Shown one piece after another: positions 40,111 to 62,023 of a stretch of DNA of 64,000 nucleotides. Source of the stretch: Gammaproteobacteria bacterium (GTDB taxonomy: Bacteria > Pseudomonadota > Gammaproteobacteria > JAABTG01). The notes under the pieces were generated by a model. It searched no databases. It worked only from the letters and a program-made list of their open reading frames with translations, and was not told where the DNA came from. The stretch covers positions 264,549 to 328,548 of the forward strand of contig JAGNLM010000001.1 in assembly GCA_017999615.1 (NCBI GenBank), in the 5' to 3' direction. The position numbers and the translations under genes were made by a program. Positions within the stretch are counted from its first letter, which is position 1; every line of letters begins with the position of its first letter.

Positions 40111-40368
40111 CGGATGCCTCCTCCAAAAGCGTTTATCGTTCTGGGGCAGCGCCGTTCCGGCGACCGATTCGCCTGAGTACGCCCCGGGGACGGTGGGCAG
40201 GGTAAGGTCTGCCGCTGCCGACTGCAACGTTCGGGAGGCCATTGAGCCCTGCCTGGAAGTCCAGGGAGAGCCGCCTGAGCCGCTCGATTTCGTAGGGGGC
40301 CAGCGCCGAGTGCCAAGCCCGAGTTGGGCGAGCGCCCAGCGGGCCAGGATTGCCCTACCATCGGCGCC

Positions 40369-46260
<5,892 letters not shown>

Positions 46261-47373: not shown

Positions 47374-47377
47374 GGGC

Positions 47378-48256: not shown

Positions 48257-48258
48257 CG

Positions 48259-50333: not shown

Positions 50334-50493
50334 CTCGTTGGCCCCCTGGCCCTTCGGGCTTCCGCTCGCTGGCCGTATAGTGGCGAGGCTGCCGGTCGAT
50401 GTACACAACCCGGGCCGGCCCGGGCCGGTTGGGCGGGAGGGCCGGGCGGCCAGCGGCCGGCCACGGGGCGTGGAGGGGGAAAGGAGGGAGTCG

Positions 50494-51129
50494 ATGGACG
50501 CGATGAAGGCCACCAACGTCACCTGGCACGAGGGTCACGTGGACCGGGACCAGCGCTCCCGGAGCCTCGGCCAGCGCGGTGCGACGCTCTGGCTCACGGG
50601 CTTGAGCGCCTCGGGCAAGAGCACCATCGCCTTCACCCTGGAGCACCTGCTGATCGAGCACGGCTGGACCGCCTACGTGCTCGACGGCGACAACATCCGC
50701 CACGGGCTCAACAAGAACCTCGGCTTCAGCGCCGAGGATCGGGCCGAGAACATCCGCCGGATCGGCGAGGTCGCGGGGCTCTTCGCGGACGCCGGCGTCA
50801 TCACCCTGACGAGTTTCATCTCGCCCTACCGGGCCGACCGCGACCGGGTCCGTGACCTGCACCGGGAGGCGGGCCTGCCGTTTCTCGAGATCTACGCGAA
50901 CACCCCGATCGAGGTCTGCGAGCAGCGCGACCCGAAGGGCCTCTACCGCCGGGCGCGGGCGGGGGAGATCAAGTCCTTCACCGGCATCGACGACCCCTAC
51001 GAGCCGCCGCTCGCCCCGGAGATCGAGCTGCGCCCGGACCGGATGTCGGCGCCCGAGTGCGCGCTCGCCATCGTGGCGGAGCTGCAGCGGCGGGGGATCC
51101 TGCCCGGAGACCTCGGCTCGCGGCCGTAG
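50494..51129 (+). CDS. cysC: Adenylyl-sulfate (APS) kinase
   Basis: ..[78 protein letters not shown].., the canonical APS kinase P-loop and motifs. SD AAGGAGGGAG is 4 nt upstream. Transcribed divergently from sbp. Confidence 0.92.
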
Positions 51130-51145
51130 CGCTACAACCCGCGGG

Positions 51146-51835
51146 CTACGGGCGAGGGCTCCCGCCTGGGGCGGCCAGGGTGAAGGCCGGGCCGAGCGCC
51201 CTGCGGATCTCCTCCAGCGTGAGGTGCCGCGCGTACGCGGCCCCGCTCGGGGTCATCTGGTCCCACTGGCAGGTCACCTGCCGCACGCCGGGCTGTTTCG
51301 CCGAGCGCAGCCAGAGGCGGGTCTTGTAGAAGAGCTGCGTCGGTGGGTCGCGCCCCGACCACCACCCGCCGTAGCCGTCGCCGATGCCAATCCCGATCCC
51401 CACACCGGTGGAGCCGCGGCCGCCGCCGATCCCGATGCCAATCCCCACGTCGGAGAGGACACCCACGCCGGTCCCGAGGCTGATGCCGACCGCCGCCAGC
51501 TGGACCGGCTGACTCATCCCCCAGTCGCTGCTCGGGCTGACGGACCGGCCCACCCGCCAGACCTCGAACACGTCCGGTTCCACGGTCTGGGGCGACTCGG
51601 ACACGGTCACGATCTCGAATTCGCAGTACGGGTCCATCTCCCCCGAACCCACGGCCTGGACGTCGGCGTGGGCCTGGTTGGCGGGGATCCGCAGGGGCTC
51701 GTGCAGGGTCAGCGTCCACCCCGGGGCGACCTGCTGGTAGGCCAGGCTGGCGTAGGGGCTGGAGGGGGGGGTGGCGCAGCCGACGAGGGTCAGGCCCAGG
51801 CCGGCAGCGAGGGAGGCGAGCGAAGTACCGCGCAT
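51146..51835 (-). CDS. Lipoprotein with C-terminal glycine-zipper (GIGIGIGGG..GVGIGIGIGDG) segment
   Basis: Lipobox MRGTSLASLAAGLGLTLVGCATPP, then a ~110-aa beta-rich domain, then ..LAAVGISLGTGVGVLSDVGIGIGIGGGRGSTGVGIGIGIGDGYGG.. (Gly-zipper / OsmB-SlyB-like). I can offer no functional assignment. Confidence 0.55.
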   Translation of the reverse strand: MRGTSLASLAAGLGLTLVGCATPPSSPYASLAYQQVAPGWTLTLHEPLRIPANQAHADVQAVGSGEMDPYCEFEIVTVSESPQTVEPDVFEVWRVGRSVSPSSDWGMSQPVQLAAVGISLGTGVGVLSDVGIGIGIGGGRGSTGVGIGIGIGDGYGGWWSGRDPPTQLFYKTRLWLRSAKQPGVRQVTCQWDQMTPSGAAYARHLTLEEIRRALGPAFTLAAPGGSPRP

Positions 51836-52108: not shown

Positions 52109-52573
52109 ATGAGCTCCACCGACGTTGAGACCATCTCCGAGCCAGACCACGACAGTGTCGTGACGGTGACGCTCACGCCCTCGGCCATCATGGACGCGGT
52201 CTTCGCCACTGCCGACCAGGTGCACACCGGCTGGGACTCCTGCGTGGACCCCGCGCTCGTCGTCTCCGACATGACCGTGGGGGACGACTCCAGCGGCAAT
52301 TACTGCCGGCTGGTGGAACAGGCCTACACCGAGGACGAGCAGCCCGACGTGAGCTGGCACGACTGGGCGGTGGAACTGCGTCTGGGGGAGGTCTACGTCA
52401 CCGCCCACTGGCGGAGCGAGGAGGACGCGAGCCCTTCGGACTGGGAGTGGTGCGCCATCCAGGCGGAGGAGGCGTTCTCCCGCGCCTGCGTGCTGCTCGG
52501 CAAGCGCGTCCGCCGGGGTCTCGTGGTCGACGAGCCCGTGCGGGCGCCGAAGCCGGCAAGGACGCATCACTGA
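52109..52573 (+). CDS. Hypothetical acidic cytoplasmic protein (154 aa, pI ~4)
   Basis: SD GAGGGA is 7 nt before the ATG. No recognisable motifs (MSSTDVETISEPDHDSVVTVTLTPSAIMDAV..WEWCAIQAEEAF..). Coding-like GC3 bias, but there is no homology evidence. Confidence 0.4.
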   Translation: MSSTDVETISEPDHDSVVTVTLTPSAIMDAVFATADQVHTGWDSCVDPALVVSDMTVGDDSSGNYCRLVEQAYTEDEQPDVSWHDWAVELRLGEVYVTAHWRSEEDASPSDWEWCAIQAEEAFSRACVLLGKRVRRGLVVDEPVRAPKPARTHH

Positions 52574-52798
52574 GGGGGTTGGCCCAGGGGGCTGGCGCCG
52601 CCGGTCTGGCGCGGGACTGTCGACTGGGGCACGTTTTAGCCTGTCGAGGCCCTTTACAGGGACACGGGGATGGAAGCCTCGTGTGGGCTCGTTCGTGCGT
52701 AACCGATTGAAAAAGCTCTAGAGGCACGGTTCTTGCTGTGGTTGCTGTGGTAGTTCCTGCCGTGCAAACGGCCGGCTGCAAACGGTGGGGTCGGTGCC

Positions 52799-53485
52799 AT
52801 GAGGCTGCCAGGTCTGCTCCTGTTCGGGGCCCTTCTCCAGGCCTCGCTCGCGGCATCTTTGCCCGCCCGCGCGGACACGATTTCGTTCGACGTGCCGAAT
52901 CCCGTTCCCCTGGACGGCCTGACTGCAGGTGGCGTCACCTTCGGGTACCAGGACTCGCTCTGGGGGTCAGCCGTGAACGCCCGGGCCGGGGTGCCGTGGC
53001 CTTCGGGCTTCGAGCCCTCGGTGTTCTCGGGGGGAGTCCTCTACGCCGATGCCCGGGGTGTGCTGACCCTGGACTTCGCCCGTCCCGTGGACCGCCTGGG
53101 CTTCGACCTCGCAGTGAGCACGTACCGGTGGGTGAGCGAGGTGGGCGGGTTCGAGCTCTTCGGTCCCGACCTCGAGCAGAGTTGGACCTCGGTCGTCGCC
53201 GTGGAGCCGGTGCCGGGCGCCTGGGCGGTCTCGGGGCATTTCGAGTACTCCGGGGCACCGGTCTCCCGGCTCGTCGTCCAGATCGACGGGATGGCGCTCC
53301 GGTGGCTGCTCGCGTGGGGTGTGGCGCCGCCGCTGCTGGTGATGGATAACCTGGACTACGGCGTCGCGGAGGCCACTGGCCGGGCCCGGGCCTCCTTCCA
53401 CACGCCGCTTCCGCCTGCCGGGGTCTCTCTCGCGGGGGCGCTGGCTGCACTCCTGGCATTGAGCCGCCGCCCCCGGGGCCGCTGA
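52799..53485 (+). CDS. Secreted protein with a C-terminal VPLPA/PEP-CTERM-like sorting tail
   Basis: Signal peptide MRLPGLLLFGALLQASLAASLPARA. The C-terminus ..HTPLPPAGVSLAGALAALLALSRRPRGR has a Pro motif, a hydrophobic helix and an Arg cluster, which is the exosortase-type sorting-signal architecture. Confidence 0.55.
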   Translation: MRLPGLLLFGALLQASLAASLPARADTISFDVPNPVPLDGLTAGGVTFGYQDSLWGSAVNARAGVPWPSGFEPSVFSGGVLYADARGVLTLDFARPVDRLGFDLAVSTYRWVSEVGGFELFGPDLEQSWTSVVAVEPVPGAWAVSGHFEYSGAPVSRLVVQIDGMALRWLLAWGVAPPLLVMDNLDYGVAEATGRARASFHTPLPPAGVSLAGALAALLALSRRPRGR

Positions 53486-53512
53486 GTCGCCGCTGAGTCG
53501 CCGCTGAGTCAG
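53478..53512. repeat. 11-bp tandem repeat x3 (GCCGCTGAGTC) spanning the stop codon of the preceding gene
   Basis: ggccgctgagtcgccgctgagtcgccgctgagtcagcg. Each unit contains TGA, giving three consecutive in-frame stop contexts. Confidence 0.85.
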
Positions 53513-53544
53513 CGTCTCCTGCGTGTCCGTCTTTCCCGGCGAGG

Positions 53545-54813
53545 CTACCGGGGCGTTGCCTTGCGCCCGCCTGCAGGCCCCTGTGCCCTGGTACGGGAGG
53601 GGGCGCCACTCGCCAGCTTCCGGACCAGCTCGACGTGCCGGGGCAGGCAGCGGGCGAGCGAGTAACGCTCCTCCACGGTCTGCCTCGCCCGCTCGCACAA
53701 GGTGTCCCGCCCGGCGTGAAGGTCGAGCGCCTCGGCGACGCGTCCCGCGATCTCCTCCGGCGAGAAGAAATCCGCGAGGAAGCCATTACGCCCGTCCTCG
53801 ATGACCTCTTCCACGGGAGCCGTGCGCGACCCTACGACCAGGCAGCCCGCGGCCAGGGCCTCGAGCATCGACCAGGAAAGGACGAACGGGTAGCTCAGAT
53901 ACACGTGGGCCCGGGAGACCTGCAGGACCTTCAGATAGCGCTCGTAGGGGACTCGCCCGAGGAAGTGAGCCCGGGATCGGTCCAGGTCCACCTCTTCCAG
54001 CAGGTGCTCGCGCCAGCTGCGTCCGTCGACCGGACGGCTGCCGTAGCTCACCCCGTCGCCTCCGACGATGACGGCGTGACAGCGTGGCCTGCGTTTCAGG
54101 AGGATCGCGAGGGCTCGCATGAAGGACGGAAACCCCCGGTACGGCTCGAGGTTCCGGGCGACGTAGGTCACGACCTCGTCTTGCGCGGACAACGTCAGGC
54201 CGGAGTCGACCTCCAGCCTCGCGGACGGGTCGGGCCGAACGGTCGTCGTGTCGATGCCTTCGTGGAGCACCGTGAGCTTGTCGCGATACTCCGGGGGATG
54301 CAGCGTCCATTGCCAGTGGGTCGGGGTGACCCCGTGGTCGGCGATGGAGAGATTGAGGAGATGGAGCGCGTTCTTGGTGCGGATCCGGCAGACGTCGTCC
54401 AGGCCGACCTCGCGTCCCGGCTCGAAATCCACGTCCGTTCCGAACGCGTGATAGAAATACTCGAAATACCCGAGAAGGGCCGCCCGGGGCCACACGTCCT
54501 TCAGGTACAGGGCCTCGCCCCATCCCATGTGGGCGCAGACCACGTCGGGCTGGAAACCCTCCTTCTTCAGGGCCTGGGCGGCGCGCGCCACCTCCTGGCC
54601 GTTCAGCACACCCTCTTCGAAATTCCGCAGGTACCGGTGCGTCGATGGGGAGGGGGCGCGCCTCGGCACCCACTCGATCTTGCGCACACGGGGAAGCTCG
54701 GGGCGCTTCGGCTTCGAGAAGAAGACGACCTGATTGTCCGGGTCGGCCGCGAGCCTCGGGGCCAGGTGCTTGTATTGCCCCGGGCAGTTGTTGTGTACGA
54801 AGGCGATCCTCAT
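53545..54813 (-). CDS. Glycosyltransferase, GT-B fold family 4 (GT1-group), co-directional with and overlapping the T1SS adaptor gene
   Basis: MRIAFVHNNCPGQYKHL.. N-domain, and a C-terminal retaining-GT4 motif region ..RNLEPYRGFPSFMRALAILLKRRPRCHAVIVGGDGV.. ..EALAAGCLVVGSRTAPVEEVIEDGRNGFL.. (E-x7-E). The start codon overlaps the stop of the upstream HlyD gene. Confidence 0.85.
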   Translation of the reverse strand: MRIAFVHNNCPGQYKHLAPRLAADPDNQVVFFSKPKRPELPRVRKIEWVPRRAPSPSTHRYLRNFEEGVLNGQEVARAAQALKKEGFQPDVVCAHMGWGEALYLKDVWPRAALLGYFEYFYHAFGTDVDFEPGREVGLDDVCRIRTKNALHLLNLSIADHGVTPTHWQWTLHPPEYRDKLTVLHEGIDTTTVRPDPSARLEVDSGLTLSAQDEVVTYVARNLEPYRGFPSFMRALAILLKRRPRCHAVIVGGDGVSYGSRPVDGRSWREHLLEEVDLDRSRAHFLGRVPYERYLKVLQVSRAHVYLSYPFVLSWSMLEALAAGCLVVGSRTAPVEEVIEDGRNGFLADFFSPEEIAGRVAEALDLHAGRDTLCERARQTVEERYSLARCLPRHVELVRKLASGAPSRTRAQGPAGGRKATPR

Positions 54814-56612
54814 CCGTCCGTGACGGCCCGCCGGAAGCTGTCGAGGATGGGCTTCAGCACATAGCTCAGGGCGGTGCGCTGGCCGGTCGCGATGTGGACC
54901 TCTGCGGGCATGCCGGGGCTCAGCACTACGCCCTCCATCCCCTTCATCGAGTCGCTCGTCATCTCGATCCGGGCGAGGTAATACGGGTATCCGGCCGGGT
55001 CCTGCAGCCGGTCGGCGGAGATGTAGGCGAGCGTCCCCTCCGCGCGCGGAGTGGTGCGCCGGCTGAAGCCCGTGAACAGCACATCTGCGCGCATGCCGAG
55101 TTTGAGGGAATCCACGTCGGTCGGTTTGACCTTGACCTCCACCACCTGGGACTCGTCCCCTGCCACGAGGCTCAGGATGCTCGCGCCTGCCGGAAGCACG
55201 ATGCCCGACGCTCGGTACTTGAGCGCGACTACGGTCCCGGCGTAAGGGGCGCGGACCACCGTGCGTTCCAGGATGTCCCGCGCGGCGTTGCGCTTTTCCG
55301 TCGCGTCGAGCAGGTCGGACTGGACCTCCTGCAGCTCACGGCTCACCTCGCTCAGGCGCTGCGTCCGCGCCGACGCCATCTGCGAGCGCGTCTCGCTGAT
55401 GCGGTCGTTGGTGCTCGCGATCTGCGCGGTGTATTGGCCGATGGTCCCCTTCAGCGCGGCCGAGTTGCGCTGCAGCGCGAGCAGCCGCGGCTTCTCGTAA
55501 ATGCCCTTGTCGAAGAGGGTCTTCGCGGCGGTCAGTTCTTCCTTGATGTAGCCGAGCTGCTCCTCGGTGGAGCGGCGCTGGACGTCGTAGCCCGAAATCT
55601 GGTTCTCGTACTGCTTGATGCGTTCTTCCAGGGTCTTGAGCTGCTCGCTCAGTGCGTCGCGGCGGGCCCGGAACAGGTTCTCCTGGGCTGTCATCAGTGC
55701 GGCGGCGTCTCCCCCGTCGCCGGTCATCCCGAGGATCTCCGGGGAGAACGCGATGGCGTCGGTCCCGTCCCGTTCCGCGATGAGCCGCGCCTCCCGCACC
55801 CGCAGGCTCTTGTAGCGGGCGTCGAGCCCCTGGAGCCGCGCCCGGGACTGGGTGTCGTCGAGCCGGGCAAGTACCTGTCCGGCCTCGACGTGCGTGCCGT
55901 CTTCCACCAGGACCTCGCGCAGGATGCCGCCTTCCAGGTGCTGGACCGGCTTGTCGCCCCCCGCGAGCTTGACCTCGCCGGTGACCACGACGGCCACCTG
56001 CAAGGGGACGAGCGTTGCCCAGGCCCCGAAGCCACCGACCACGAGGAGCAGGATCAGCAGGCCCACCGCGATGATGGAGCGATACTCGTGTTTGACGGGA
56101 GGGGCCTCTCCCCGGACGTCGGTGGCGGGAAGGACAACTTCAGCGTCCTCGACCGGGACCGCCGGGCCGGCGGAGGATGGGGACTGGCTGCCTTCGCCAG
56201 ACGCGGCCTCACCCTCGATCGGCTCGGAGGGCGGGCCTTCTGCCCGCGAGGACTTCTCCGTGTCGGCGGCGGGGAGGGCGACTGCCCGGGTTCCCCGGGA
56301 CGGCTGGGGCAGGGCTCCCGGGGATGCGGAGGGAGACGGGGAGGGGGCTGGGCCCGGGGAGGGCGGGGGACCGCCGGCTCCGGCGGGCCTGCCAGGAACC
56401 CTCGGCCGAGGCCTGCCTGCAGTGGTCGGCGTCGCGCCACTGGGCGCCCGGGGGTACGGCGGTAGCTCGAGGGCCTCCGGCTCGCCCTCGCCATGCGTCG
56501 CCGGCTTTGCCGGGCCCCGGCGCCGCTCAGCCTGCTGGCCCTCCAACTCCCTCTCGATCGCGCGCTCGATGATGCTCATGGTATGGCCCGACAGTCCCCG
56601 TTCGTTCTCCAC
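54810..56612 (-). CDS. Type I secretion periplasmic adaptor (HlyD/PrtE family) with an atypically long (~180 aa) Pro/Ser/Gly/Glu-rich cytoplasmic N-terminal extension
   Basis: TM anchor ..YRSIIAVGLLILLLVVGGFGAWATLV.., long coiled-coil (..LKTLEERIKQYENQISGYDVQRRSTEEQLGYIKEELTAAKTLFDKG..) and a C-terminal beta-domain ..ARIEMTSD..GMPAEVHIATGQRTALSYVLKPI.., all typical of T1SS MFPs. The start is ambiguous: GTG at 56612, or ATG MSIIERAIE at 56580. Confidence 0.85.
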   Translation of the reverse strand: MENERGLSGHTMSIIERAIERELEGQQAERRRGPAKPATHGEGEPEALELPPYPRAPSGATPTTAGRPRPRVPGRPAGAGGPPPSPGPAPSPSPSASPGALPQPSRGTRAVALPAADTEKSSRAEGPPSEPIEGEAASGEGSQSPSSAGPAVPVEDAEVVLPATDVRGEAPPVKHEYRSIIAVGLLILLLVVGGFGAWATLVPLQVAVVVTGEVKLAGGDKPVQHLEGGILREVLVEDGTHVEAGQVLARLDDTQSRARLQGLDARYKSLRVREARLIAERDGTDAIAFSPEILGMTGDGGDAAALMTAQENLFRARRDALSEQLKTLEERIKQYENQISGYDVQRRSTEEQLGYIKEELTAAKTLFDKGIYEKPRLLALQRNSAALKGTIGQYTAQIASTNDRISETRSQMASARTQRLSEVSRELQEVQSDLLDATEKRNAARDILERTVVRAPYAGTVVALKYRASGIVLPAGASILSLVAGDESQVVEVKVKPTDVDSLKLGMRADVLFTGFSRRTTPRAEGTLAYISADRLQDPAGYPYYLARIEMTSDSMKGMEGVVLSPGMPAEVHIATGQRTALSYVLKPILDSFRRAVTDG

Positions 56613-56653
56613 CCCCGTTCCCGGCCTGTAAGCGGCACCCGCTGGGCCCCCCT

Positions 56654-58411
56654 TTAGGTGTTCTGACCGAGCACCTGCAGGCGGGCGGCCGGCGCCCCGG
56701 CGGGCAGGCGGCCCACTGCCGGCCCAGGCGGAAGGATCCGGGCCAGGACGTCGGAGCGTGGCCCGAAGAGCTCGACGTTGCCGTTGCGGAGCACCAGGAG
56801 CTTGTCCGCCCCGTCGAGCAGGCTCGGCCGGTGGGTGATCACGATGACCGTCATCCCGGCGGAGCGGGCGGTCCCCAGGGCCCGAACCAGCGCCTGCTCG
56901 CTCTCGCTGTCCAGATTGGAGTTGGGCTCGTCGAGCACCACCAGGCGCGGATTCCCGAAGAAGGCCCGGGCCAGCCCGATGTGCTGGCGCTGGCCGGCCG
57001 AGAGGGCAGACCCGTTCTCACCCACGTCGGTTTCGTAGCCCTTCGGCAGGCGCTGGATCATCTCGTGGGCGCCGGTCAGCCGCGCGGCCGCAATCACCGG
57101 CTTCACGTCCACGGTCGGTGCCATGCGGGCGATGTTCTCTGCGACGGTCCCGGAGAAGAGCTGGACCTCCTGGGGGAGGTAGCCCATGTGGTGTCCGAGC
57201 TGGTCGGGGTCCCAGTGGCGCAGGTCCGCGCCATCCAGTCGGACCGTACCCGATGCCGCCGGGATCACCCCCGCGATGACCCGGCCGAGCGTGGTCTTGC
57301 CGGCGCCGCTCGGTCCGACGATGCCGAGCTGCTTGCCCGGCTCGAGGTCGAAGGACACGCCCTGCAGGATGACCCGCGGTGTTCCCGCAGTGGGGGAGCC
57401 GCTGATGACGGTCACCTTTTCCACCTGTAGGCGGCCTTCCGGCGAGGGGAGGGCGAGACCGCCGGCCTGCCGCAGATTCTGCGCGAGGAGCTCGCTCAGG
57501 CGGCCGAACGCGGCGTGGCCGGAGACGAGCGTCTTCCAGGTCGAGATCGAGGCCTCCACCGGCGCCAGGCCGCGCGACATGATCATGTTGGCGGCGATCA
57601 TGGCGCCGACCAGGAGCTCGTGCTGGAGGAAGAGATAGGCGCCGACGCCGTACAGGGCGACCTGCAGGGCCATGCGGACGAAGCGGGCGAAGGTGCTCAC
57701 GGTCACCGCCCGGCCGCTCGCGACGGAGAGCTGGCGCAGCTTCTCCTGGTTCTGGCGCTCCCAGCGCCGGACGACGGCCGGCACCATGCCCATCGCCTGG
57801 ATGGCGTCGGCGCTGCGCACGTAGTCGTCGACCCGCGAGAAGCCCTTGAGGGTCTCGGTGTTCATCTTCTTCAGGGCGGGCCGGCTCACCACCTCGTTGA
57901 CCACTGCAAGGATCATGAGCACCACGGTTCCGGCCAGGGCGACCCAGGCCAGCGTGGGGTGGAAGAAGTACAGGGCGCCGATGTAGAGCGGCACCAGCGG
58001 GAATTCGACCATCCGGTAGATCTCGCTACCGGTGAGCAGGCCGCGCAGTTCCGTGACGTCCCGCAGGGCCTGGCCGCTGGCCGGGCGCACGATCCCGCTC
58101 GTTCGCAGCACGGCCTCCAGCACGTCCCCCCCCAGGCGGGCGTCCAGGCCCTGGGCCACGCGCGCCAGGACCTTGCCGCGCACCAGCTCCAGGGCGGCGG
58201 TGGCGAGAATGGCGCCCATCACCATCAGGGTGAGCATGAGCAGGGTCTCCCCGCTCATGGTGTTGAAGACCAGTGTGAAGACGCTGAAGATGTAGATGGG
58301 CAGCGCCAGTTGCAGGACGCTGATGCACAAGGAAAAGAGGACGACCGCCAGGAAGGCGCCGCGGAACTGGCGCAGGACCTTCAGGAGCGGGGAGGGTTGC
58401 CTGGGGGTCAT
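56654..58411 (-). CDS. Type I secretion ABC transporter (PrtD/AprD type; 6-TM domain + C-terminal NBD, no C39 peptidase domain)
   Basis: MTPRQPSPLLKVLRQFRGAFLAVVLFSLCISVLQLALPIYIFSVF.. TMD, then an NBD with Walker A GPSGAGKTTL, signature LSAGQRQHIGLARA and Walker B LVVLDEPNSNLD. 585 aa. The track ORF start at 58525 is an over-extension. Confidence 0.88.
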   Translation of the reverse strand: MTPRQPSPLLKVLRQFRGAFLAVVLFSLCISVLQLALPIYIFSVFTLVFNTMSGETLLMLTLMVMGAILATAALELVRGKVLARVAQGLDARLGGDVLEAVLRTSGIVRPASGQALRDVTELRGLLTGSEIYRMVEFPLVPLYIGALYFFHPTLAWVALAGTVVLMILAVVNEVVSRPALKKMNTETLKGFSRVDDYVRSADAIQAMGMVPAVVRRWERQNQEKLRQLSVASGRAVTVSTFARFVRMALQVALYGVGAYLFLQHELLVGAMIAANMIMSRGLAPVEASISTWKTLVSGHAAFGRLSELLAQNLRQAGGLALPSPEGRLQVEKVTVISGSPTAGTPRVILQGVSFDLEPGKQLGIVGPSGAGKTTLGRVIAGVIPAASGTVRLDGADLRHWDPDQLGHHMGYLPQEVQLFSGTVAENIARMAPTVDVKPVIAAARLTGAHEMIQRLPKGYETDVGENGSALSAGQRQHIGLARAFFGNPRLVVLDEPNSNLDSESEQALVRALGTARSAGMTVIVITHRPSLLDGADKLLVLRNGNVELFGPRSDVLARILPPGPAVGRLPAGAPAARLQVLGQNT

Positions 58412-58486
58412 CGGTTGAGGTCTCCGAACCGGTTGGGGACGTCCCGGCCTGAATTGTAGGCCAAGCGGCCGGTCCCGCACCGGGCA

Positions 58487-58527
58487 AAAAAAAGGGCCGG
58501 GGTGGCCGAGGCCCCCCGGCCCCACTT
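58487..58527 (-). terminator. Rho-independent terminator downstream of the RTX gene (minus strand); a second perfect hairpin lies at 58530..58560
   Basis: On the minus strand: GGGCCGGGG-GGCCTCGGCCA-CCCCGGCCC followed by TTTTTTTT. An adjacent hairpin CGTCGGCCGGC-ccac-GCCGGCCGACG lies immediately after the RTX stop. It is placed between the substrate gene and the ABC gene, as in hlyA-hlyB-type attenuation. Confidence 0.75.
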
Positions 58528-58575
58528 CTGACCGCTGCCGTCGGCCGGCGTGGGCCGGCCGACGTTACGGATGGC

Positions 58576-60120
58576 TTACGCGGGCTGCACGTCGTACAGG
58601 TCGCAGTCGCCCGGCATGCCGGGGCATGCACAGTTGCCGACGAAGATGTCCACGCTCTCGCCAGCCTCGATGTCCTCGATCGTCTGGTAAGCGCCGACAT
58701 CGCCGCCCGTCACGCCCTCGAGCTTGATCCAGAAGTTGGACTCGAGCTCGGGATGACCGGGGTTGTCATAGGCAAGCCACGTGGTGTTGTCGAACGCCAG
58801 GTAGGTGTCCACGCCGTTGTCCCACACCTCGATGCCGCGCTGGCCATTCGCTGCGGGGTTGTCGCTCAGCGCCTCGGTGCTCGAGACGAGGTCCGTTACG
58901 TCGTCGAGGCAAATCTTGTCGCCTGCCTCGAGGTCCTTGATGATGTCGTTGCCGTCCAGCCCCATCGTGATCTGGCCGTCTTCATAGCCGAACCACGAAA
59001 TGGTCGCGAAGCGGTAGACGAACGTGTCGGCACCGGCGCCGCCGGACACGTAGTCGTTGTCCGCGCCACCGCCAACCGTGTCGTTGCCGCCTGCGCCGTT
59101 GACGGTGTCCTGTCCGTCGCCGCCGCAGATGCAGTCGTCGTCTTCACTGCCGGTGATGTTGTCGTTGCCTCCGCCACCGGACACGATCTCGCCGTTGGTG
59201 ATGACGTCGTTCCCCTCGCCGCCCTCGATGATGTCGAAGCCGGCGCCGCCGTCCATCGTGTCGTTTCCGGCCTCACCGTACATCACGTCCTGGTCGGCGC
59301 CGCCGTACATCTTGTCGTCCTGGTCGCCGCCGTACATGGTGTCGTTGCCGGTGTCACCGTACATGGTGTCATAGCCGGTGCCACCGAACATCAGGTCACC
59401 GAGGGGCTTCTGGAGCGCATCCTCGCAGGGGTTGCACACGACCGACGTGAAGTCATTGGCGCCGCCATACATCAGGTCGTTGCCTTCCTCGCCGTACATG
59501 GTGTCCTGGCCGGCGTCGCCCTTCATGGTGTCGTTGCCGGTCTCACCCTCGAGGAGGTCGTCACCGCTGCCGCCCCAGATCTTGTCGTTGCCGGCGTCGC
59601 CGTGGACGGTGTCGTCGCCTGCCCCGCCCATCAGCACGTCGTTGTGCGAGCCACCGCTGATGAAGTCACTGCCGTTGTCGCCGGAGATGAAGTCGGTGCC
59701 GCGCTCGCCGAACAGGACGTCGTTGCCCTCGCCACCGTAGATGCTGTCACCGGAGAAGTCGTCGCCGTATCCCGACGGGAGTTTGTTGCCGTAAGGAACG
59801 GCGGCAAGGCCCAACTCGTCCGAATAGGCCTTCACCTCATTGACATACAGGCCGTAGCCGCCGTAGATGACGTCGTCACCGCCTTCGCCGTTCACGAAGT
59901 CGGCGGCGCCGCCCATGGCTGCCCAGTCGTTCGGGTTGGCGACGAAGTCGTCCAGCTCCTGGGTGCCGTACGGGGCGTTGTTGTAGGCATTCTCGAGCTG
60001 CGACAGGTTGTTGGAGCCATCCAGCACCACACCAAAGGTCGGGAGGAACCCATATCCCGGAATCACCCCGGAGGTGGTGTTGGCCTGATTGTTGAACAGC
60101 ACGAACTTCTGCAGTGCCAT
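58576..60120 (-). CDS. RTX calcium-binding beta-roll protein (T1SS substrate), ~20 GGxGxDxxx nonapeptide repeats
   Basis: MALQKFVLFNNQ.. (SD GAGGAAA precedes it), then many repeats of the type GGEGNDVLFGERGTDFISGDNGSDFISGGSHNDVLMGGAGDDTVHGDAGNDKIWGGSGDDLLEG.. and a C-terminal uncleaved secretion-signal region. No enzymatic domain is evident. The track start at 60414 is an over-extension. Confidence 0.85.
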   Translation of the reverse strand: MALQKFVLFNNQANTTSGVIPGYGFLPTFGVVLDGSNNLSQLENAYNNAPYGTQELDDFVANPNDWAAMGGAADFVNGEGGDDVIYGGYGLYVNEVKAYSDELGLAAVPYGNKLPSGYGDDFSGDSIYGGEGNDVLFGERGTDFISGDNGSDFISGGSHNDVLMGGAGDDTVHGDAGNDKIWGGSGDDLLEGETGNDTMKGDAGQDTMYGEEGNDLMYGGANDFTSVVCNPCEDALQKPLGDLMFGGTGYDTMYGDTGNDTMYGGDQDDKMYGGADQDVMYGEAGNDTMDGGAGFDIIEGGEGNDVITNGEIVSGGGGNDNITGSEDDDCICGGDGQDTVNGAGGNDTVGGGADNDYVSGGAGADTFVYRFATISWFGYEDGQITMGLDGNDIIKDLEAGDKICLDDVTDLVSSTEALSDNPAANGQRGIEVWDNGVDTYLAFDNTTWLAYDNPGHPELESNFWIKLEGVTGGDVGAYQTIEDIEAGESVDIFVGNCACPGMPGDCDLYDVQPA

Positions 60121-60583
60121 GGTCGATTTCCTCATGCGCAAAGTCTTGGACGTCCGCGAGACCCAGCGCCCCCCTCCGAAGCCCTTGTCAGGCTCCCGAT
60201 ACGCTCGGCAGCCTCTGTAGAAGGTGACTGGTTCGCTCCGCCGGAGAATGGTCCGTTGTTCGCCCAGAACTGGCGACCTGGACCGGTTCCCCGTCGCCCA
60301 TCCTTTGCAACAGTCGTGCCCGGTGCGCCGGGGCGCTGGAAACCCAGGGAATTCAAATGGGTTACGGGCTCGGGTGAGGGGTGGGAGGAGGCTGCTCGCG
60401 GGGAGTGTAAACAAGTTCGACAGCGTCCCCGCAGCCCGGCCCGACCGGGGGAAGCGATGGCCGCCCGGATCTGTGAGTCAGTTCCCATTTCAGGGGTCTT
60501 TCTGCCGCGGGCGACGTGTCCGGCGGCCTGCCGACACTGTAAATGTTTCCGACATAGGGAGACGAGGGGGCGCCGCGAAAATG

Positions 60584-60611
60584 GAAACGGGCGGTCACCC
60601 GGAGGGTGACC
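60584..60611 (-). terminator. Candidate terminator for the upstream (minus-strand) VPLPA-CTERM gene
   Basis: Perfect palindrome GGGCGGTCACCC-gga-GGGTGACCGCCC. On the minus strand it is followed by GTTTCCATTTTC. It lies ~190 nt beyond the gene's stop, so the association is moderate. Confidence 0.45.
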
Positions 60612-60798
60612 GCCCGCCCCTGCCTCCCCTGGCTCGAGCCACGAACCTTGCTACGCTGCCGACCCCCCTCGTCCTCGAGGGCCGGCCCTGCCGCTACACT
60701 ATCCGCGCAACGCTACCTTCCAGCCCGCCTGCGAGCCCGTTGCGATCCCCTTGCGCCAGGCGTCGTCCTTCCCGCGTGTGTCGTTCCAGCGCGTCATC

Positions 60799-61602
60799 CT
60801 AACCCGCCCGGCTCCGGCGCAGGGCGCCCAGCAGCCCGAGGGCCGAAAGGAAGAGCGGCAAGGCGGCCGGCACGGGCACGGGGCTGGCCTGCCACGTGAT
60901 GTCGCTGGTGTGCGAACCGTCGAAGGCATAATTTGTCCCGCCAACCTTGTTCGTATCGCCATACTCAAGGGTCTCTGAAAGCGTCCCGGAGTCTAGCTGG
61001 AGGTAAAGGGTATATAACTGGTCATAAACATGGGTCCCTGGCAGGGCATCGGTACGAAAGATCTCTGCGTTGATCTGCAGGTAACCGGAACCGGAGTCCT
61101 CGAACGGATTGGCGCCGTAGGAAGCGCTACCGAGGGATTTGACAGCGCCGTTTGTTCCGGGGTCGAGCTCCCAAAAGCTCTGGTCCTCCCAGACCACACC
61201 GGGTACCAGGGGCTGCACAAGGCCAGGGTTTTCGCCTCCAGCGCTGGTGGCGATGTTCGCATCACTCCGATAGAAGACCGGCATGGAATCGTTGTAGACG
61301 TTTGTCGGGGAGTACGGGGGGTTGTTCTCCTGCGCGAGGTAGCCGTTCAGTTTCAGGCTCACGACATCGTTCACGGTCCACTCAACGGAAGCGCCGGCCG
61401 CAGCAGCGTCCGAGAGGTTGAGCGTGAGCACGCCCGAGATGGGCACGGGGGTGTTGAACACAGCCGATGTCGAATCATAGAACCACGCACCGACACCCCC
61501 GGTGAACGTGAAATCAACTTCCACTGCTTGCGCCGCCTGCAGGGTGGCCAAGCTCAGACCGGCCGCCACGACGGCCCCGGTTAGCGTGCGTTTCGTGAAC
61601 AT
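60799..61602 (-). CDS. Secreted protein with a C-terminal VPLPA/PEP-CTERM-like sorting domain
   Basis: Signal peptide MFTKRTLTGAVVAAGLSLATLQAAQA, then a beta-rich body. The C-terminus is ..ASPVPVPAALPLFLSALGLLGALRRSRAG (P-rich motif + TM + Arg cluster). The track ORF start at 61980 over-extends into the tRNA. Confidence 0.6.
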   Translation of the reverse strand: MFTKRTLTGAVVAAGLSLATLQAAQAVEVDFTFTGGVGAWFYDSTSAVFNTPVPISGVLTLNLSDAAAAGASVEWTVNDVVSLKLNGYLAQENNPPYSPTNVYNDSMPVFYRSDANIATSAGGENPGLVQPLVPGVVWEDQSFWELDPGTNGAVKSLGSASYGANPFEDSGSGYLQINAEIFRTDALPGTHVYDQLYTLYLQLDSGTLSETLEYGDTNKVGGTNYAFDGSHTSDITWQASPVPVPAALPLFLSALGLLGALRRSRAG

Positions 61603-61936
61603 CGCTGAGACTCCCTGGGTTCTGGGTGGTTGGCTCGATGCAGTTTGACGAGGGTCGAGTGCAGTCGCCAGGATGCGGTCGGGCCGAAGCATTTCCCGTG
61701 CCTGATGGCGCCCAACCCGCGGAGACTCAGCCATTTGACATAGGCGAGGGTTCGGCCCCGCCCCGTCGGGGTCGCCGGCTGTAAAGTCCACCGACAAGCC
61801 CGTGTTCCCGGGCGCGGGGAGAGGAGGGGAGCGCTCGACGCGCCGAGCACCCGAGGCCGAGCGCCGGGAGGGGAGATCGAGGGGGTGAGGAAGAGCCGGC
61901 CCCGACTCAGGGGCGCGACCGCCGCAGGGCTGCGGT

Positions 61937-62023
61937 TGGTGCCGGAGAGAGGACTTGAACCTCCACGGGGTTACCCCCACTAGTACCTGAAACTAGCGCG
62001 TCTACCAATTCCGCCACCCCGGC
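61937..62023 (-). tRNA. tRNA-Leu (anticodon CAG), class II with long variable arm
   Basis: Minus-strand sequence GCCGGGGTGGCGGAATTGGTAGACGCGCTAGTTTCAGGTACTAGTGGGGGTAACCCCGTGGAGGTTCAAGTCCTCTCTCCGGCACCA. The 7-bp acceptor stem (one G-U), the 5-bp anticodon stem CTAGT/ACTAG with loop TTCAGGT (anticodon CAG), the long variable arm, the TPsiC loop TTCAAGT and the encoded CCA all fit. Confidence 0.88.

What the first reader, a model, noticed from the sequence alone, without database searches (positions are those of the whole stretch)
52799..61602. Secretion island: PrtD-type T1SS + RTX beta-roll substrate + overlapping GT4 glycosyltransferase, bracketed by two proteins with VPLPA/PEP-CTERM-like sorting tails
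On the minus strand the order is RTX protein (terminator hairpin + T8), then ABC, then HlyD, then glycosyltransferase (GT start overlaps HlyD stop). This implies that a GT is co-transcribed with the T1SS apparatus, which is unusual. It hints at a glycosylated secreted RTX or S-layer-like protein, or at coupling to exopolysaccharide.

On both sides sit secreted proteins whose C-termini (..TPLPPAGVSLAGALAALLALSRRPRGR and ..PVPVPAALPLFLSALGLLGALRRSRAG) have the Pro-motif/TM/Arg-cluster architecture of exosortase (PEP-CTERM or VPLPA-CTERM) substrates. That links the locus to an EPS/exosortase system located elsewhere.

The HlyD homologue has a ~180-aa Pro/Ser-rich cytoplasmic extension. The RTX gene has a 680-bp non-coding leader (60121..60798), which suggests complex regulation.
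Basis: partly seen in the sequence, partly recalled or inferred. Interest (0 to 1): 0.55.

Follow-up and report, generated by a model that had tools for sequence, protein, structure and literature searches.

The report
RTX secretion operon under PEP-CTERM control
An uncultured wastewater bacterium has an operon for a secreted calcium-binding protein, its export pump and a sugar-adding enzyme, related to a known rhizobial slime-making system, and it appears to share an on-switch with two neighbouring cell-surface proteins of the PEP-CTERM type.

Summary
On the minus strand lie a 514-aa RTX protein, a strong terminator, a PrtD-type ABC exporter, a HlyD adaptor and a GT4 glycosyltransferase whose ATG overlaps the HlyD stop (ATGA).

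The arrangement is not a one-off. RTX, ABC and HlyD are the commonest neighbours of this GT family in 80 genomes, and the same gene order recurs in Sedimenticola, Thiobacillus and Hydrogenophilaceae. The GT is the homologue of Sinorhizobium meliloti WgcA/ExpC. That gene sits beside ExpD1/ExpD2 (T1SS) and ExpE1 (a secreted Ca-binding RTX protein), which are required for galactoglucan (EPS II) production.

The new result is regulatory. The RTX gene and both flanking secreted proteins each carry the published "PEP-CTERM box": a 17-nt motif ending in TTTACA, a 63-84 nt spacer, and a sigma-54 -24/-12 element. Motif 1 occurs four times against 0.07 expected. This explains the 678-nt "leader" and supports the proposed link to an exosortase system better than the tails do: one tail is borderline against the HMMs, the other fails.

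The HlyD N-terminal extension is real and conserved. What the GT glycosylates is unresolved, and no exosortase could be looked for outside the window.

The parts
52642..52658 (+). PEP-CTERM box motif 1 (TGTCGAGGCCCTTTACA) upstream of P228
   Evidence: Exact match to TGTCG-N6-TTTACA. There are 4 matches in the window against 0.07 expected. It is conserved in the related species L095 amid diverged flanks. It fits the 17-nt motif ending in TTTACA of PMC1569441.
52722..52737 (+). sigma-54 -24/-12 element (AGGCACGGTTCTTGCT), 63 nt after motif 1 and 61 nt before the P228 ATG
   Evidence: GGCACG-N4-TTGCW occurs twice in the window against 0.05 expected.
52799..53485 (+). P228: a 228-aa protein with a signal peptide and the tail ..TPLPPAGVSLAGALAALLALSRRPRGR
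   Evidence: ORF and GC3 0.86. No Pfam or NCBIfam hit, including the tail scored alone. Orphan: only 3 clusters of >=75% identity. The tail is conserved in two of the three relatives; the third looks frameshifted.
53545..54813 (-). GT4 glycosyltransferase of the WgcA/ExpC (PF12000 + PF00534) family, 422 aa
   Evidence: More than 7900 homologues. 43.6% identity over 95% of its length to the S. meliloti GT next to the MarR regulator. The model has a GT-B fold, pLDDT 87, with best matches MshA, PglA and BshA.
54810..56612 (-). HlyD-family T1SS adaptor, 600 aa. Residues about 1-178 form the N-terminal motif MSIIERAIEREL followed by a Pro/Ser/Ala/Gly-rich linker; the TM helix and the periplasmic part follow
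   Evidence: TIGR01843 at 363 bits, matching residues 180-596. Start-codon analysis. The extension is kept in frame in L095, and analogous extensions occur in L096 and L098. PGAP's 418-aa call starts inside the TM helix.
56654..58411 (-). PrtD-type T1SS ABC permease/ATPase, 585 aa, with no C39 or CLD domain
   Evidence: TIGR01842 at 612 bits against a cutoff of 510. The gene call is 585 aa. A GGAGA ribosome-binding site precedes the ATG.
58486..58564 (-). Intrinsic terminator or attenuator between RTX and ABC: two GC-rich hairpins followed by T8
58576..60120 (-). RTX beta-roll protein, 514 aa, with two repeat blocks, no enzymatic domain and a Cys-rich C-terminal tail
60306..60321 (-). sigma-54 -24/-12 element (GGGCACGACTGTTGCA), 185 nt upstream of the RTX ATG
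60406..60422 (-). PEP-CTERM box motif 1, proximal copy (TGTCGAACTTGTTTACA), 84 nt before the sigma-54 element
60538..60554 (-). PEP-CTERM box motif 1, distal copy (TGTCGGAAACATTTACA)
   Evidence: PMC1569441 states that motif 1 is sometimes repeated.
60584..60620 (-). Terminator hairpin of the P267 gene (17-bp stem followed by a T-rich run)
   Evidence: dG -43.8 kcal/mol, z -3.7.
60799..61602 (-). P267: a 267-aa protein with a signal peptide and the tail ..SPVPVPAALPLFLSALGLLGALRRSRAG (PEP-CTERM/VPLPA-CTERM class, borderline)
   Evidence: Orphan. Its only tail-level relative, P0270, carries SPVPVPAALPLMLSGLGLLGFIARRRKG, which passes TIGR03370 and TIGR02595.
61688..61703 (-). sigma-54-like element (AGGCACGGGAAATGCT), 85 nt upstream of the P267 ATG
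61780..61796 (-). PEP-CTERM box motif 1 (TGTCGGTGGACTTTACA), 76 nt before the sigma-54 element

Best explanation
The locus is a sigma-54-controlled cell-surface or matrix module with two layers.

Core. The core is an ExpE1/ExpD1/ExpD2/ExpC-like operon. A Ca2+-binding RTX protein is transcribed from a PEP-CTERM-box/sigma-54 promoter. Most transcripts probably stop at the strong terminator behind it. Read-through supplies the PrtD-type ABC exporter, the HlyD adaptor and, translationally coupled to HlyD, a cytoplasmic retaining GT4 enzyme of the WgcA/ExpC family. Together with an unlinked TolC-like channel, the T1SS exports the RTX protein. The GT builds or decorates an extracellular glycan that works together with that protein, as in S. 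meliloti, where ExpE1 secretion is needed for galactoglucan.

Periphery. Two lineage-specific Sec-exported proteins with PEP-CTERM-type tails (P267, P228) are single-gene units. They carry the same activator box and sigma-54 promoter, so all three units would be switched on together by a PrsR-type activator encoded elsewhere.

Shown: domain identities, gene order, the overlap, the terminators, the conserved synteny, homology to the exp genes, and the cis-elements with their spacing.

Inferred: co-transcription, RTX as the T1SS substrate, PrsR/RpoN dependence, presence of an exosortase, and the GT acceptor.
For: Family assignments.

ATGA overlap, also seen in L010, L013, L095, L097 and L098.

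Neighbour clustering over 80 genomes: RTX in 24 loci, ABC in 21 and HlyD in 16 are the top neighbours of the GT. The identical order RTX-ABC-HlyD-GT occurs in L010, L011 and L013.

S. meliloti pSymB carries Ca-binding protein, HlyD, ABC, MarR regulator, GT4 (the match), DUF6212, GT, pyruvyl transferases and rfbACBD. Identities to the window are GT 43.6%, ABC 41% and HlyD 31%. None of the other GTs in that locus is hit by the window GT.

The reviews state that ExpD1/D2 secrete ExpE1, that expD mutants are blocked in EPS II, and that ExpC/WgcA is a predicted galactosyltransferase.

The same triad, plus a pyruvyl transferase, is on a Phaeobacter plasmid.

PEP-CTERM box: motif 1 occurs 4 times against 0.07 expected, and the exact sigma-54 core twice against 0.05 expected. 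All copies lie in the three upstream regions in the right orientation. Spacers are 63, 84 and 76 nt and distances to the ATG are 61, 185 and 85 nt. These fall inside the published ranges of 32-92 and 23-221 nt.

In about 1.8 Mb of other loci, the composite pattern hits only genes for proteins with PEP-CTERM-type tails (L031, L036, L096) and one more RTX gene heading an ABC-HlyD-GT operon (L097).

RpoN-dependent transcription of a PEP-CTERM gene has been shown experimentally in a sludge bacterium (PMC9850573).
Against: - No other glycan-synthesis or export genes are in the locus. S. meliloti needs about 20 more.
- There is no TolC, exosortase, PrsK or PrsR in the 64 kb.
- The similarity between the RTX protein and ExpE1 is limited to the repeats.
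- The P228 tail matches no HMM and the P267 tail is borderline.
- I could not see the published motif-1 logo. Only its length and its TTTACA 3' end were checked.
- There is no expression data.
- The strong terminator could mean that ABC-HlyD-GT have a promoter of their own.
Confidence: 0.6

Rival explanations
1. The GT is a protein glycosyltransferase. It glycosylates the unfolded RTX protein in the cytoplasm, possibly docked on the long cytoplasmic arm of HlyD, and the T1SS exports a glycoprotein comparable to the glycosylated cyanobacterial RTX proteins oscillin and SwmA.
For: - The conserved unit is only four genes, with no lipid-carrier, polymerase or glycan-export genes.
- In cyanobacteria the GT homologue lies directly next to RTX genes without T1SS genes (L032, L033, L041, L062, L071, L085).
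- Glycosylated RTX proteins are documented (PMC3034196).
- TPR-GT41 and TPR-GT9-like genes lie near the GT in L096, L026, L059 and L076.
- The GT is translationally coupled to HlyD, and the HlyD cytoplasmic arm is extended in several GT-linked systems.
Against: - The characterised homologue WgcA/ExpC is assigned to polysaccharide synthesis.
- Other homologues sit in rfb, Wzm/Wzt or GT2 polysaccharide clusters.
- The fold matches are small-molecule or lipid-linked-sugar GT4 enzymes.
- No motif outside the repeats is conserved among GT-linked RTX proteins.
- The literature searched reports no T1SS substrate glycosylated by a GT4.
Confidence: 0.2
2. S-layer-type arrangement, as in Caulobacter. 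The RTX protein forms a surface layer or Ca2+-bridged coat. The GT adds the LPS or O-antigen sugar that anchors it.
For: - The protein consists mainly of RTX repeats, with no recognised enzymatic domain, and its gene has a strong terminator of its own, suggesting high expression.
- A GT homologue lies next to HlyD and ABC in Asticcacaulis, a member of the Caulobacterales (L058).
- RTX S-layer proteins are known (PMC3034196).
- The presence of O-antigen genes next to rsaADE in Caulobacter is from my own knowledge and was not checked here.
Against: - At 514 aa the protein is small for an RTX S-layer protein.
- No S-layer domain was hit.
- Sigma-54/enhancer control implies conditional rather than constitutive expression.
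- Nothing here tests the claim directly.
Confidence: 0.1
3. The GT has no functional connection to the T1SS. It is a general LPS or EPS glycosyltransferase that merely sits at the end of the operon.
For: Context varies among close GT relatives, and many loci have no T1SS (for example L012, L014, L017). Several homologues lie in ordinary polysaccharide clusters.
Against: - The 4-nt overlap with HlyD is conserved in at least six loci from different lineages.
- T1SS and RTX genes are the top three neighbour families of the GT across Alpha-, Beta- and Gammaproteobacteria and Cyanobacteria.
- The same triad occurs in S. meliloti and Phaeobacter.
Confidence: 0.07
4. The ABC/HlyD pair exports the glycan or a glycolipid made by the GT rather than the RTX protein. 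The RTX protein would be an accessory.
For: Some reviews assign wgdA and wgdB to EPS II polymerisation or export. MFP-dependent ABC exporters for glycolipids exist, for example DevBCA and HgdBC (paper listed).
Against: - The ABC and HlyD proteins score well above the curated cutoffs of the protein-T1SS models TIGR01842 and TIGR01843.
- An RTX gene lies immediately upstream, as in classical T1SS operons.
- ExpE1 is reported to be secreted by ExpD1/D2.
Confidence: 0.06

Closest known systems
Sinorhizobium meliloti exp/wg galactoglucan (EPS II) cluster: ExpE1/WgeA, ExpD1/WgdA, ExpD2/WgdB, ExpC/WgcA
   Same: - A GT4 of the same PF12000 family (43.6% identity over 95% of the length).
- A PrtD-type ABC (41% identity) and a HlyD adaptor (31% identity).
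- A small secreted Ca-binding RTX protein with no enzymatic domain, all within a few kb.
- Genetic evidence there that secretion of the RTX protein is needed for EPS production.
   Different: - The S. meliloti cluster is 27-32 kb with five further GTs, pyruvyl transferases, dTDP-sugar genes and a MarR regulator. It is controlled by WggR, PhoB, MucR and ExpR.
- In S. meliloti, expC is a separate operon on the other side of the regulator.
- Here there is a four-gene operon with the GT fused to the end of the T1SS genes, no other glycan genes, and sigma-54/PEP-CTERM-box control.
PEP-CTERM/exosortase system with the PrsK-PrsR-PrsT regulon (Haft et al. 2006; PepA of Zoogloea and Aquincola)
   Same: - Single-gene units with long upstream regions.
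- A 17-nt motif ending in TTTACA, a spacer of about 63 nt, then a sigma-54 promoter.
- A stem-loop terminator after the gene.
- Small signal-peptide proteins ending in a Pro motif, a TM helix and an Arg cluster.
- An activated-sludge habitat.
   Different: - The tails are VPVPA/TPLPP variants that are borderline against, or fail, the HMMs.
- No exosortase or Prs genes are in the window.
- A T1SS substrate gene that has no PEP-CTERM tail carries the box, here and in L097. The papers I could read do not describe this.
Classical protease/lipase-type T1SS operons (PrtDEF, AprDEF, LipBCD, PrsDE)
   Same: A PrtD-type ABC without a C39 domain, a HlyD adaptor, an adjacent RTX substrate, and a terminator between the substrate and transporter genes.
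   Different: - No OMP gene in the operon.
- HlyD has a cytoplasmic extension of about 150 aa.
- A GT is translationally coupled to HlyD.
- The substrate ends in a Cys-rich tail after the usual acidic-hydrophobic end.
Glycosylated cyanobacterial RTX proteins (oscillin, SwmA)
   Same: RTX proteins associated with glycosylation. GT homologues lie directly beside RTX genes in Phormidium, Microcoleus and Nostoc genomes.
   Different: No evidence that this GT family modifies those proteins, and no evidence that the RTX protein here is glycosylated.

Membership tests
Type I secretion system, PrtD/PrtE type | ABC exporter with TMD and NBD, without an N-terminal C39 peptidase or CLD | tested here: met
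   TIGR01842 at 612 bits against a cutoff of 510, matching residues 51-596 of the 623-aa ORF. The called protein is 585 aa. The HlyB and LssB models fall below their cutoffs.
Type I secretion system, PrtD/PrtE type | HlyD-family membrane fusion protein | tested here: met
   TIGR01843 at 363 bits against a cutoff of 208.65.
Type I secretion system, PrtD/PrtE type | TolC-type outer-membrane channel | not testable with these tools
   None in the locus or the 64-kb window.
Type I secretion system, PrtD/PrtE type | Substrate with RTX nonapeptide repeats and a C-terminal, uncleaved signal | tested here: inconclusive
   The repeats are clear (PF00353 at 164.7 bits; 19 motifs). The C-terminus has ..ESVDIFV followed by a 21-aa Cys-rich tail. 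Secretion itself was not tested.
S. meliloti exp/wg galactoglucan system | WgcA/ExpC-type GT4 | tested here: met
   43.6% identity over residues 1-402, E 1e-103. It is the only GT in the 29-kb S. meliloti locus hit by the window GT. The identity of that gene as expC/wgcA is inferred from its position after the MarR regulator and before the wga genes.
S. meliloti exp/wg galactoglucan system | ExpD1/ExpD2 T1SS and the ExpE1 Ca-binding protein | tested here: met
   ABC 41% identity, HlyD 31% identity, and repeat-level similarity to the Ca-binding protein. Orthology as opposed to general T1SS homology is not resolved.
S. meliloti exp/wg galactoglucan system | The remaining biosynthetic set (wga and wge GTs, pyruvyl transferases, dTDP-sugar genes, WggR) | tested here: not met
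   Absent from the locus and the window. The flanks are RNase R, tRNA-Leu, an APS kinase and the sulfate transporter.
PEP-CTERM proteins (TIGR02595 / PF07589) | The C-terminal domain passes the HMM cutoff | tested here: inconclusive
   P267: 17.7 against 16 for the tail alone, 13.8 in the full protein, and PF07589 at 16.5 against 20.7. P228: no hit.
PEP-CTERM proteins (TIGR02595 / PF07589) | N-terminal signal peptide, then a Pro motif, a TM helix and an Arg cluster at the extreme C-terminus | tested here: met
   Read directly from the sequences: MFTKRTLTGAVVAAGLSLATLQAAQA... and MRLPGLLLFGALLQASLAASLPARA..., with the tails as quoted.
PEP-CTERM proteins (TIGR02595 / PF07589) | Upstream PEP-CTERM box (motif 1, spacer, sigma-54 motif), as in Proteobacteria | tested here: met
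   The pattern is validated on canonical PEP-CTERM genes in L031 and L036.
PEP-CTERM proteins (TIGR02595 / PF07589) | Exosortase (EpsH/Xrt) and PrsK/PrsR/PrsT present in the same genome | not testable with these tools
   Not in the window, and the rest of the MAG (744-kb contig and others) could not be read. Presence is inferred only from Haft's statement that the DNA motif and PrsR/K/T have the same phylogenetic profile.
VPLPA-CTERM (TIGR03370) | The tail passes the HMM cutoff of 25.35 | tested here: not met
   P267 tail scores 19.5 (14.9 in the full protein). P228 has no hit. The near-identical tail of P0270 passes at 28.8.
GT4 retaining glycosyltransferases (GT-B fold) | Glycos_transf_1 C-terminal domain and a GT-B two-Rossmann fold | tested here: met
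   PF00534 at 64.2 bits and PF12000 at 216.6 bits. The model has pLDDT 87.3. Foldseek gives MshA at E 2e-21, plus PglA, BshA, PimA and HepE.

The most novel reading that the evidence does not exclude
The WgcA/ExpC-type GT acts on the T1SS substrate itself. It would be held at the secretion complex by the conserved 'MSIIERAIE' helix and the long disordered cytoplasmic arm of HlyD, and would glycosylate or glycan-prime the unfolded RTX protein just before export. The resulting secreted glycoprotein, together with exosortase-processed PEP-CTERM proteins switched on by the same PrsR/sigma-54 signal, would build the floc or granule matrix. This would make it a T1SS-coupled protein glycosylation pathway. 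It would also explain why ExpE1 secretion is required for galactoglucan in S. meliloti.
Probability: 0.15. Interest if true: 0.8.

Novelty: new variant of a known kind. Interest (0 to 1): 0.5.

Why it matters
Two matrix-building systems have so far been studied separately. One is T1SS-secreted RTX proteins coupled to exopolysaccharide synthesis (the S. meliloti exp cluster). The other is the PEP-CTERM/exosortase regulon needed for floc formation in activated sludge. Here they appear to be wired to the same predicted switch, in an uncultured gammaproteobacterium seen in many wastewater and granular-sludge metagenomes.

The stripped-down four-gene form (RTX, ABC, HlyD, GT) recurs in several genera. 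It points to ExpC-type GT plus T1SS plus RTX as the functional core of the exp-like systems. That gives a simpler model for an old open question: why secretion of a Ca-binding protein is needed to make an exopolysaccharide.

The work also gives a practical rule. The composite PEP-CTERM-box pattern identified divergent sorting-tail proteins that the HMMs miss, such as P228.

Tried and rejected
- Genomic-island reading. A tRNA-Leu(CAG) lies next to P267, but no direct repeat of its 3' end (att-like) was found in the window. Composition is only mildly atypical: GC3 is 0.75-0.88 against 0.92-0.97 in neighbouring genes. Not pursued.
- Riboswitch or sRNA in the 678-nt region. No Rfam match beyond noise.
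- The simple terminator scan missed the RTX terminator because its loop is longer than 8 nt. Direct folding was used instead.
- A shared 10-mer search among the three upstream regions gave nothing useful. The motif became visible only after reading Haft 2006.
- PF12000 in the literature: only two incidental mentions. Searches for papers on a GT linked to a T1SS or on glycosylated T1SS substrates gave no direct precedent other than the exp cluster.
- Homologue searches for P228 and P267 found only near-identical sequences, so neither has a recognisable family.
- The HlyD extension (167 aa) and the RTX C-terminal domain (155 aa) match no NCBIfam model.
- The structure and fold search of the GT gave only generic GT4 matches and no clue to the acceptor.
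- Becker 1997 (PMC178839) is not held.
- The MutL search did not place the organism in a named family: identity to named genera is below 50%.

Full report
**Source of the window**

The window is 70% G+C. Its proteins match exactly those of an NCBI MAG labelled "Gammaproteobacteria bacterium" (MBP7711077-MBP7711112, 744-kb contig). They also match many wastewater and granular-sludge metagenome contigs. MutL is less than 50% identical to any named genus, so the lineage is uncultured and poorly placed.

The rest of the window is housekeeping. It holds pta-ackA, TCA-cycle genes, a TRAP transporter, malic enzyme, an RND pump, mutL-miaA-hfq-hflXKC, purA, a giant UvrA-like gene, cysPTWA, an APS kinase and RNase R. 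No exosortase, PrsK, PrsR or TolC is present.

**Checking the observation**

| Gene | Coordinates | Size | Key evidence |
|---|---|---|---|
| P228 | 52799-53485 (+) | 228 aa | signal peptide; tail matches no model |
| GT | 53545-54813 (-) | 422 aa | PF12000 216.6 bits; PF00534 64.2 bits |
| HlyD | 54810-56612 (-) | 600 aa | TIGR01843 363 bits (cutoff 208.65) |
| ABC | 56654-58411 (-) | 585 aa | TIGR01842 PrtD 612 bits (cutoff 510) |
| RTX | 58576-60120 (-) | 514 aa | PF00353 164.7 bits; 19 nonapeptide motifs |
| P267 | 60799-61602 (-) | 267 aa | signal peptide; tail borderline |

- The HlyD stop and the GT start overlap as ATGA.
- Behind the RTX stop lie two GC-rich hairpins and a T8 run. Folding gives dG -74 kcal/mol and z -5.9.
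- The 678 nt upstream of RTX are non-coding: stops in all frames, GC3 of 0.64-0.70, and no Rfam family.

**The HlyD extension is real**

Within the 600-codon frame the only start codons are 1 (GTG), 12 (ATG, giving MSIIERAIEREL...) and 23. The next is codon 183, which lies inside the TM helix. PGAP chose codon 183, giving 418 aa.

In a related species (L095, where P228 is 88% identical) the whole extension is kept in frame with an in-frame deletion. It starts with the same VENERGLSGHTMSIIERAIEREL.

Two more distant systems have HlyD proteins of 583 and 579 aa (L096, whose GT is 65% identical to the window's, and L098, whose GT is 62% identical). They begin MNIFERAIEKLE and MSIIERAIEHEQ, followed by a Pro/Ala/Glu-rich linker of about 150 aa. 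This is a conserved subfamily feature, not an annotation artefact.

**GT plus T1SS is the commonest context for this GT family**

The GT has more than 7900 homologues. They are 50-65% identical across Alpha-, Beta- and Gammaproteobacteria and Cyanobacteria.

I fetched 80 genome loci and clustered all neighbouring ORFs. The three most frequent neighbour families were:
- RTX proteins, in 24 loci;
- PrtD-like ABC exporters, in 21 loci;
- HlyD adaptors, in 16 loci, at a median of 21 nt upstream of the GT.

Recurrence of the arrangement:
- The exact order RTX-ABC-HlyD-GT recurs in Sedimenticola (L010), Thiobacillus (L011) and a Hydrogenophilaceae MAG (L013). It also recurs in L097 and L098.
- The 4-nt HlyD/GT overlap is seen in L010, L013, L095, L097 and L098.
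- ABC-HlyD-GT without an adjacent RTX gene occurs in Aquipseudomonas, Methylovorus and a Syntrophaceae MAG.
- In Cyanobacteria the GT lies directly beside RTX genes without transporter genes (L032, L033, L041, L062, L071, L085).

In other genomes the GT sits in ordinary polysaccharide clusters. These contain rfbABCD, GT2 genes, Wzm/Wzt-type transporters, sulfotransferases and methyltransferases.

**Closest characterised relative**

A tblastn search of plasmids hit S. meliloti pSymB at 43.6% identity over 95% of the GT. The annotated region is the exp/wg galactoglucan cluster. Its order is: GTs and a methyltransferase, a Ca-binding protein, HlyD, an unannotated ABC, a MarR regulator, the GT4 match, DUF6212, a GT, two pyruvyl transferases and rfbACBD.

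By position the match is ExpC/WgcA. None of the other GTs in that locus is hit by the window GT. The window ABC and HlyD are 41% and 31% identical to ExpD1 and ExpD2.

The reviews state three things:
- ExpD1/ExpD2 secrete the NodO-like Ca-binding ExpE1.
- expD mutants are blocked in EPS II.
- ExpC/WgcA is a predicted galactosyltransferase needed for low-molecular-weight EPS II.

The same triad, plus a pyruvyl transferase, is on a 70-kb Phaeobacter inhibens plasmid. So the window holds a minimal operon-fused version of a known kind of system.

**The flanking proteins**

Both have typical signal peptides, and both end in a Pro motif, a hydrophobic helix and an Arg cluster.

P267:
- Its tail reaches TIGR02595 only when scored alone (17.7 against 16).
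- It fails TIGR03370 (19.5 against 25.35) and PF07589.
- It has weak similarity to the flocculation protein PepA (20 bits against a cutoff of 80).
- Its only tail-level relative, P0270, carries SPVPVPAALPLMLSGLGLLGFIARRRKG, which passes both models.

P228:
- Its tail matches nothing.

Both proteins are orphans outside close relatives.

**The cis-regulatory evidence**

A scan for the sigma-54 consensus found its two best matches upstream of P228 and upstream of RTX, with a third, weaker match upstream of P267. The exact core GGCACG-N4-TTGCW occurs only at those first two sites, against 0.05 expected.

Haft et al. 2006 describe a regulatory module upstream of proteobacterial PEP-CTERM genes (PMC1569441):
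- a 17-nt motif 1 ending in TTTACA, sometimes repeated;
- a spacer of 62.8 +/- 10.6 nt (range 32-92);
- a 17-nt sigma-54 motif;
- about 71 nt (range 23-221) to the start codon.

The phylogenetic profile of that DNA motif equals that of PrsR, PrsK and PrsT.

In the window, TGTCG-N6-TTTACA (17 nt) occurs exactly four times against 0.07 expected, and no shuffle gave more than one match. All four copies lie in the right orientation in the three upstream regions.

| Gene | Motif 1 position(s) | Spacer to the sigma-54 element | Distance to ATG |
|---|---|---|---|
| P228 | 52642-52658 | 63 nt | 61 nt |
| RTX | 60406-60422 and 60538-60554 | 84 nt (from the proximal copy) | 185 nt |
| P267 | 61780-61796 | 76 nt | 85 nt |

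Both elements upstream of P228 are conserved blocks in L095, where the surrounding sequence has diverged.

As a control, I scanned about 1.8 Mb of unrelated fetched loci on both strands with the composite pattern. Hits occurred in only two kinds of place:
- upstream of signal-peptide proteins with canonical or VPLPA-type tails: L031 ..LPVPEPASLALLG...RRRR, L036 ..GVPEPASLALLG...RRRK and L096 ..EVPLPASVLLLG...RRRR;
- upstream of one more RTX gene heading an ABC-HlyD-GT operon: L097, TGTCGCGTTTCTTTACA-62-TGGCACCTTAAATGCA-86-ATG.

The pattern is therefore specific. It also marks the RTX gene of this operon type in two separate lineages.

RpoN-dependent transcription of a PEP-CTERM gene, with a terminator behind it, has been shown experimentally in the sludge bacterium Aquincola (PMC9850573).

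**Anatomy of the "leader"**

Reading 5' to 3' on the minus strand:
1. P267 stop at 60799.
2. A 17-bp-stem terminator at 60620-60584 (dG -43.8 kcal/mol).
3. Distal and proximal activator boxes.
4. The sigma-54 promoter at 60321-60306.
5. A 5' UTR of about 175-185 nt, with a GAGGA ribosome-binding site before the ATG at 60120.

**Most likely mechanism**

A PrsR-type enhancer-binding protein and sigma-54, both encoded elsewhere, would switch on three units together: P228, P267 and the RTX operon. The terminator after RTX would give high RTX expression and lower ABC-HlyD-GT expression.

The T1SS, using an unlinked outer-membrane channel, would export the Ca-binding beta-roll protein. The GT would make or modify an extracellular glycan that functions with it, by analogy with ExpC, ExpD and ExpE1. 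The two CTERM-tail proteins would be processed by an exosortase.

What is shown: domains, gene order, overlap, terminators, conserved synteny, homology to the exp genes, and the motifs with their spacing. What is inferred: everything about expression, secretion, the GT acceptor and the presence of an exosortase.

The GT model is a standard GT-B/GT4 fold resembling MshA, PglA and BshA. It does not reveal the acceptor.

**Rival readings**

The main rival is direct glycosylation of the RTX protein. Three observations favour it: the four-gene core has no other glycan genes, GT and RTX genes are adjacent in Cyanobacteria (where glycosylated RTX proteins such as oscillin and SwmA are known), and TPR-GT41 or TPR-GT9-like genes lie nearby in some loci. 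The polysaccharide role assigned to ExpC and the polysaccharide contexts of other homologues count against it.

The S-layer-anchor, coincidental-adjacency and glycan-export readings are less likely. The rival entries of this report set out the evidence for and against each.

**Verdict**

The locus is a real, conserved and partly precedented system: a new variant of the exp-like T1SS/RTX/GT module, wired into the PEP-CTERM-box sigma-54 regulon.

The "unusual" label is not justified for GT-T1SS coupling as such. The proposed link to an exosortase system is supported by regulatory DNA rather than by the tails. It still needs the rest of the genome to be checked.

Noticed in passing
window 58576-58650 (C-terminus of the RTX protein); also L011 and L098: The RTX protein ends ..ESVDIFVGNCACPGMPGDCDLYDVQPA: a typical acidic-hydrophobic T1SS end followed by a 21-aa Cys-rich tail. 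Similar Cys-rich tails occur in the RTX proteins of L011 (..NVLVDANCDCCNAPGNTFPGA) and L098 (..VACGYEYDCCCGLPT). L013 stops at ..HVLVD. The function is unknown.
   Followed up: partly
window 56070-56612 (HlyD residues 1-180); L096 1396-1950; L098 4245-4800: The N-terminal motif M(S/N)I(I/F)ERAIE, followed by a disordered Pro/Ala/Glu-rich linker of about 150 aa, is conserved in the HlyD of several GT-linked T1SS. It matches no Pfam or NCBIfam model. It could be a docking arm.
   Followed up: partly
window 50494-51129 (APS kinase) and 46300-50400 (cysPTWA); L097 16116-20479; L093 2056-4880: A recurring sulfation theme surrounds this GT family. A stand-alone APS kinase and the sulfate transporter lie next to the window locus. 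There are three sulfotransferases in L097, sulfotransferase genes next to the GT in Microcoleus and Phormidium, and cysD/cysC in an Azospirillum plasmid cluster. No sulfotransferase was recognised in the window.
   Followed up: no
window 61937-62023 (-): tRNA-Leu(CAG) lies directly upstream of the P267 promoter region, with a sigma-70-like promoter at 62084-62056. The locus genes have a somewhat lower GC3 than their neighbours (0.75-0.88 against 0.92-0.97). No att-like repeat of the tRNA end was found.
   Followed up: yes
window 50196-50246: A hexanucleotide repeat (TCCCGC x 8.5, 97% matches) lies in the 5' part of the sulfate-binding-protein gene, on the opposite strand, and encodes (Gly-Ala)n. 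The called protein is 411, 415 or 417 aa in different metagenome strains, so the array looks length-polymorphic.
   Followed up: partly
window 53478-53510: A perfect 11-nt tandem repeat (GCCGCTGAGTC x 3) spans the P228 stop codon and runs into the 59-nt convergent gap before the GT stop. No hairpin terminator is evident there.
   Followed up: no
window 52733-52751: TTGCTGTGG is repeated twice, starting within the -12 element of the P228 sigma-54 promoter. The second copy is missing in the related species L095.
   Followed up: no
window 40324-46260 (+): A very large (about 1963-2033 aa) UvrA-like protein with UvrA DNA-binding and interaction domains and many faint NTPase hits. This is about twice the length of a normal UvrA.
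   Followed up: no
L097 1549-6134: Two paralogous RTX genes (619 aa and 530 aa) lie in divergent orientation upstream of ABC-HlyD-GT. The intergenic region holds two motif-1 copies (3771 and 4361) and one sigma-54 element (4440). The gene caller placed a probably spurious 174-aa ORF over this promoter region.
   Followed up: partly
L096 4490-14466: In this relative, ABC-HlyD-GT is followed by a methyltransferase-GT fusion, an EryCIII-like GT, a VPLPA-CTERM protein with its own PEP-CTERM box, and then TPR-GT41, TPR-GT2 and methyltransferase-GT2 proteins. This is a much larger glycosylation cluster than in the window.
   Followed up: partly
window 51146-51835 (-) and 52109-52573 (+): Two further conserved hypothetical genes lie between the APS kinase and P228. 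One is a 229-aa lipoprotein (lipobox LVGC) and the other a 154-aa acidic cytoplasmic protein. Neither has a family match or a PEP-CTERM box. They are syntenic in L095.
   Followed up: no
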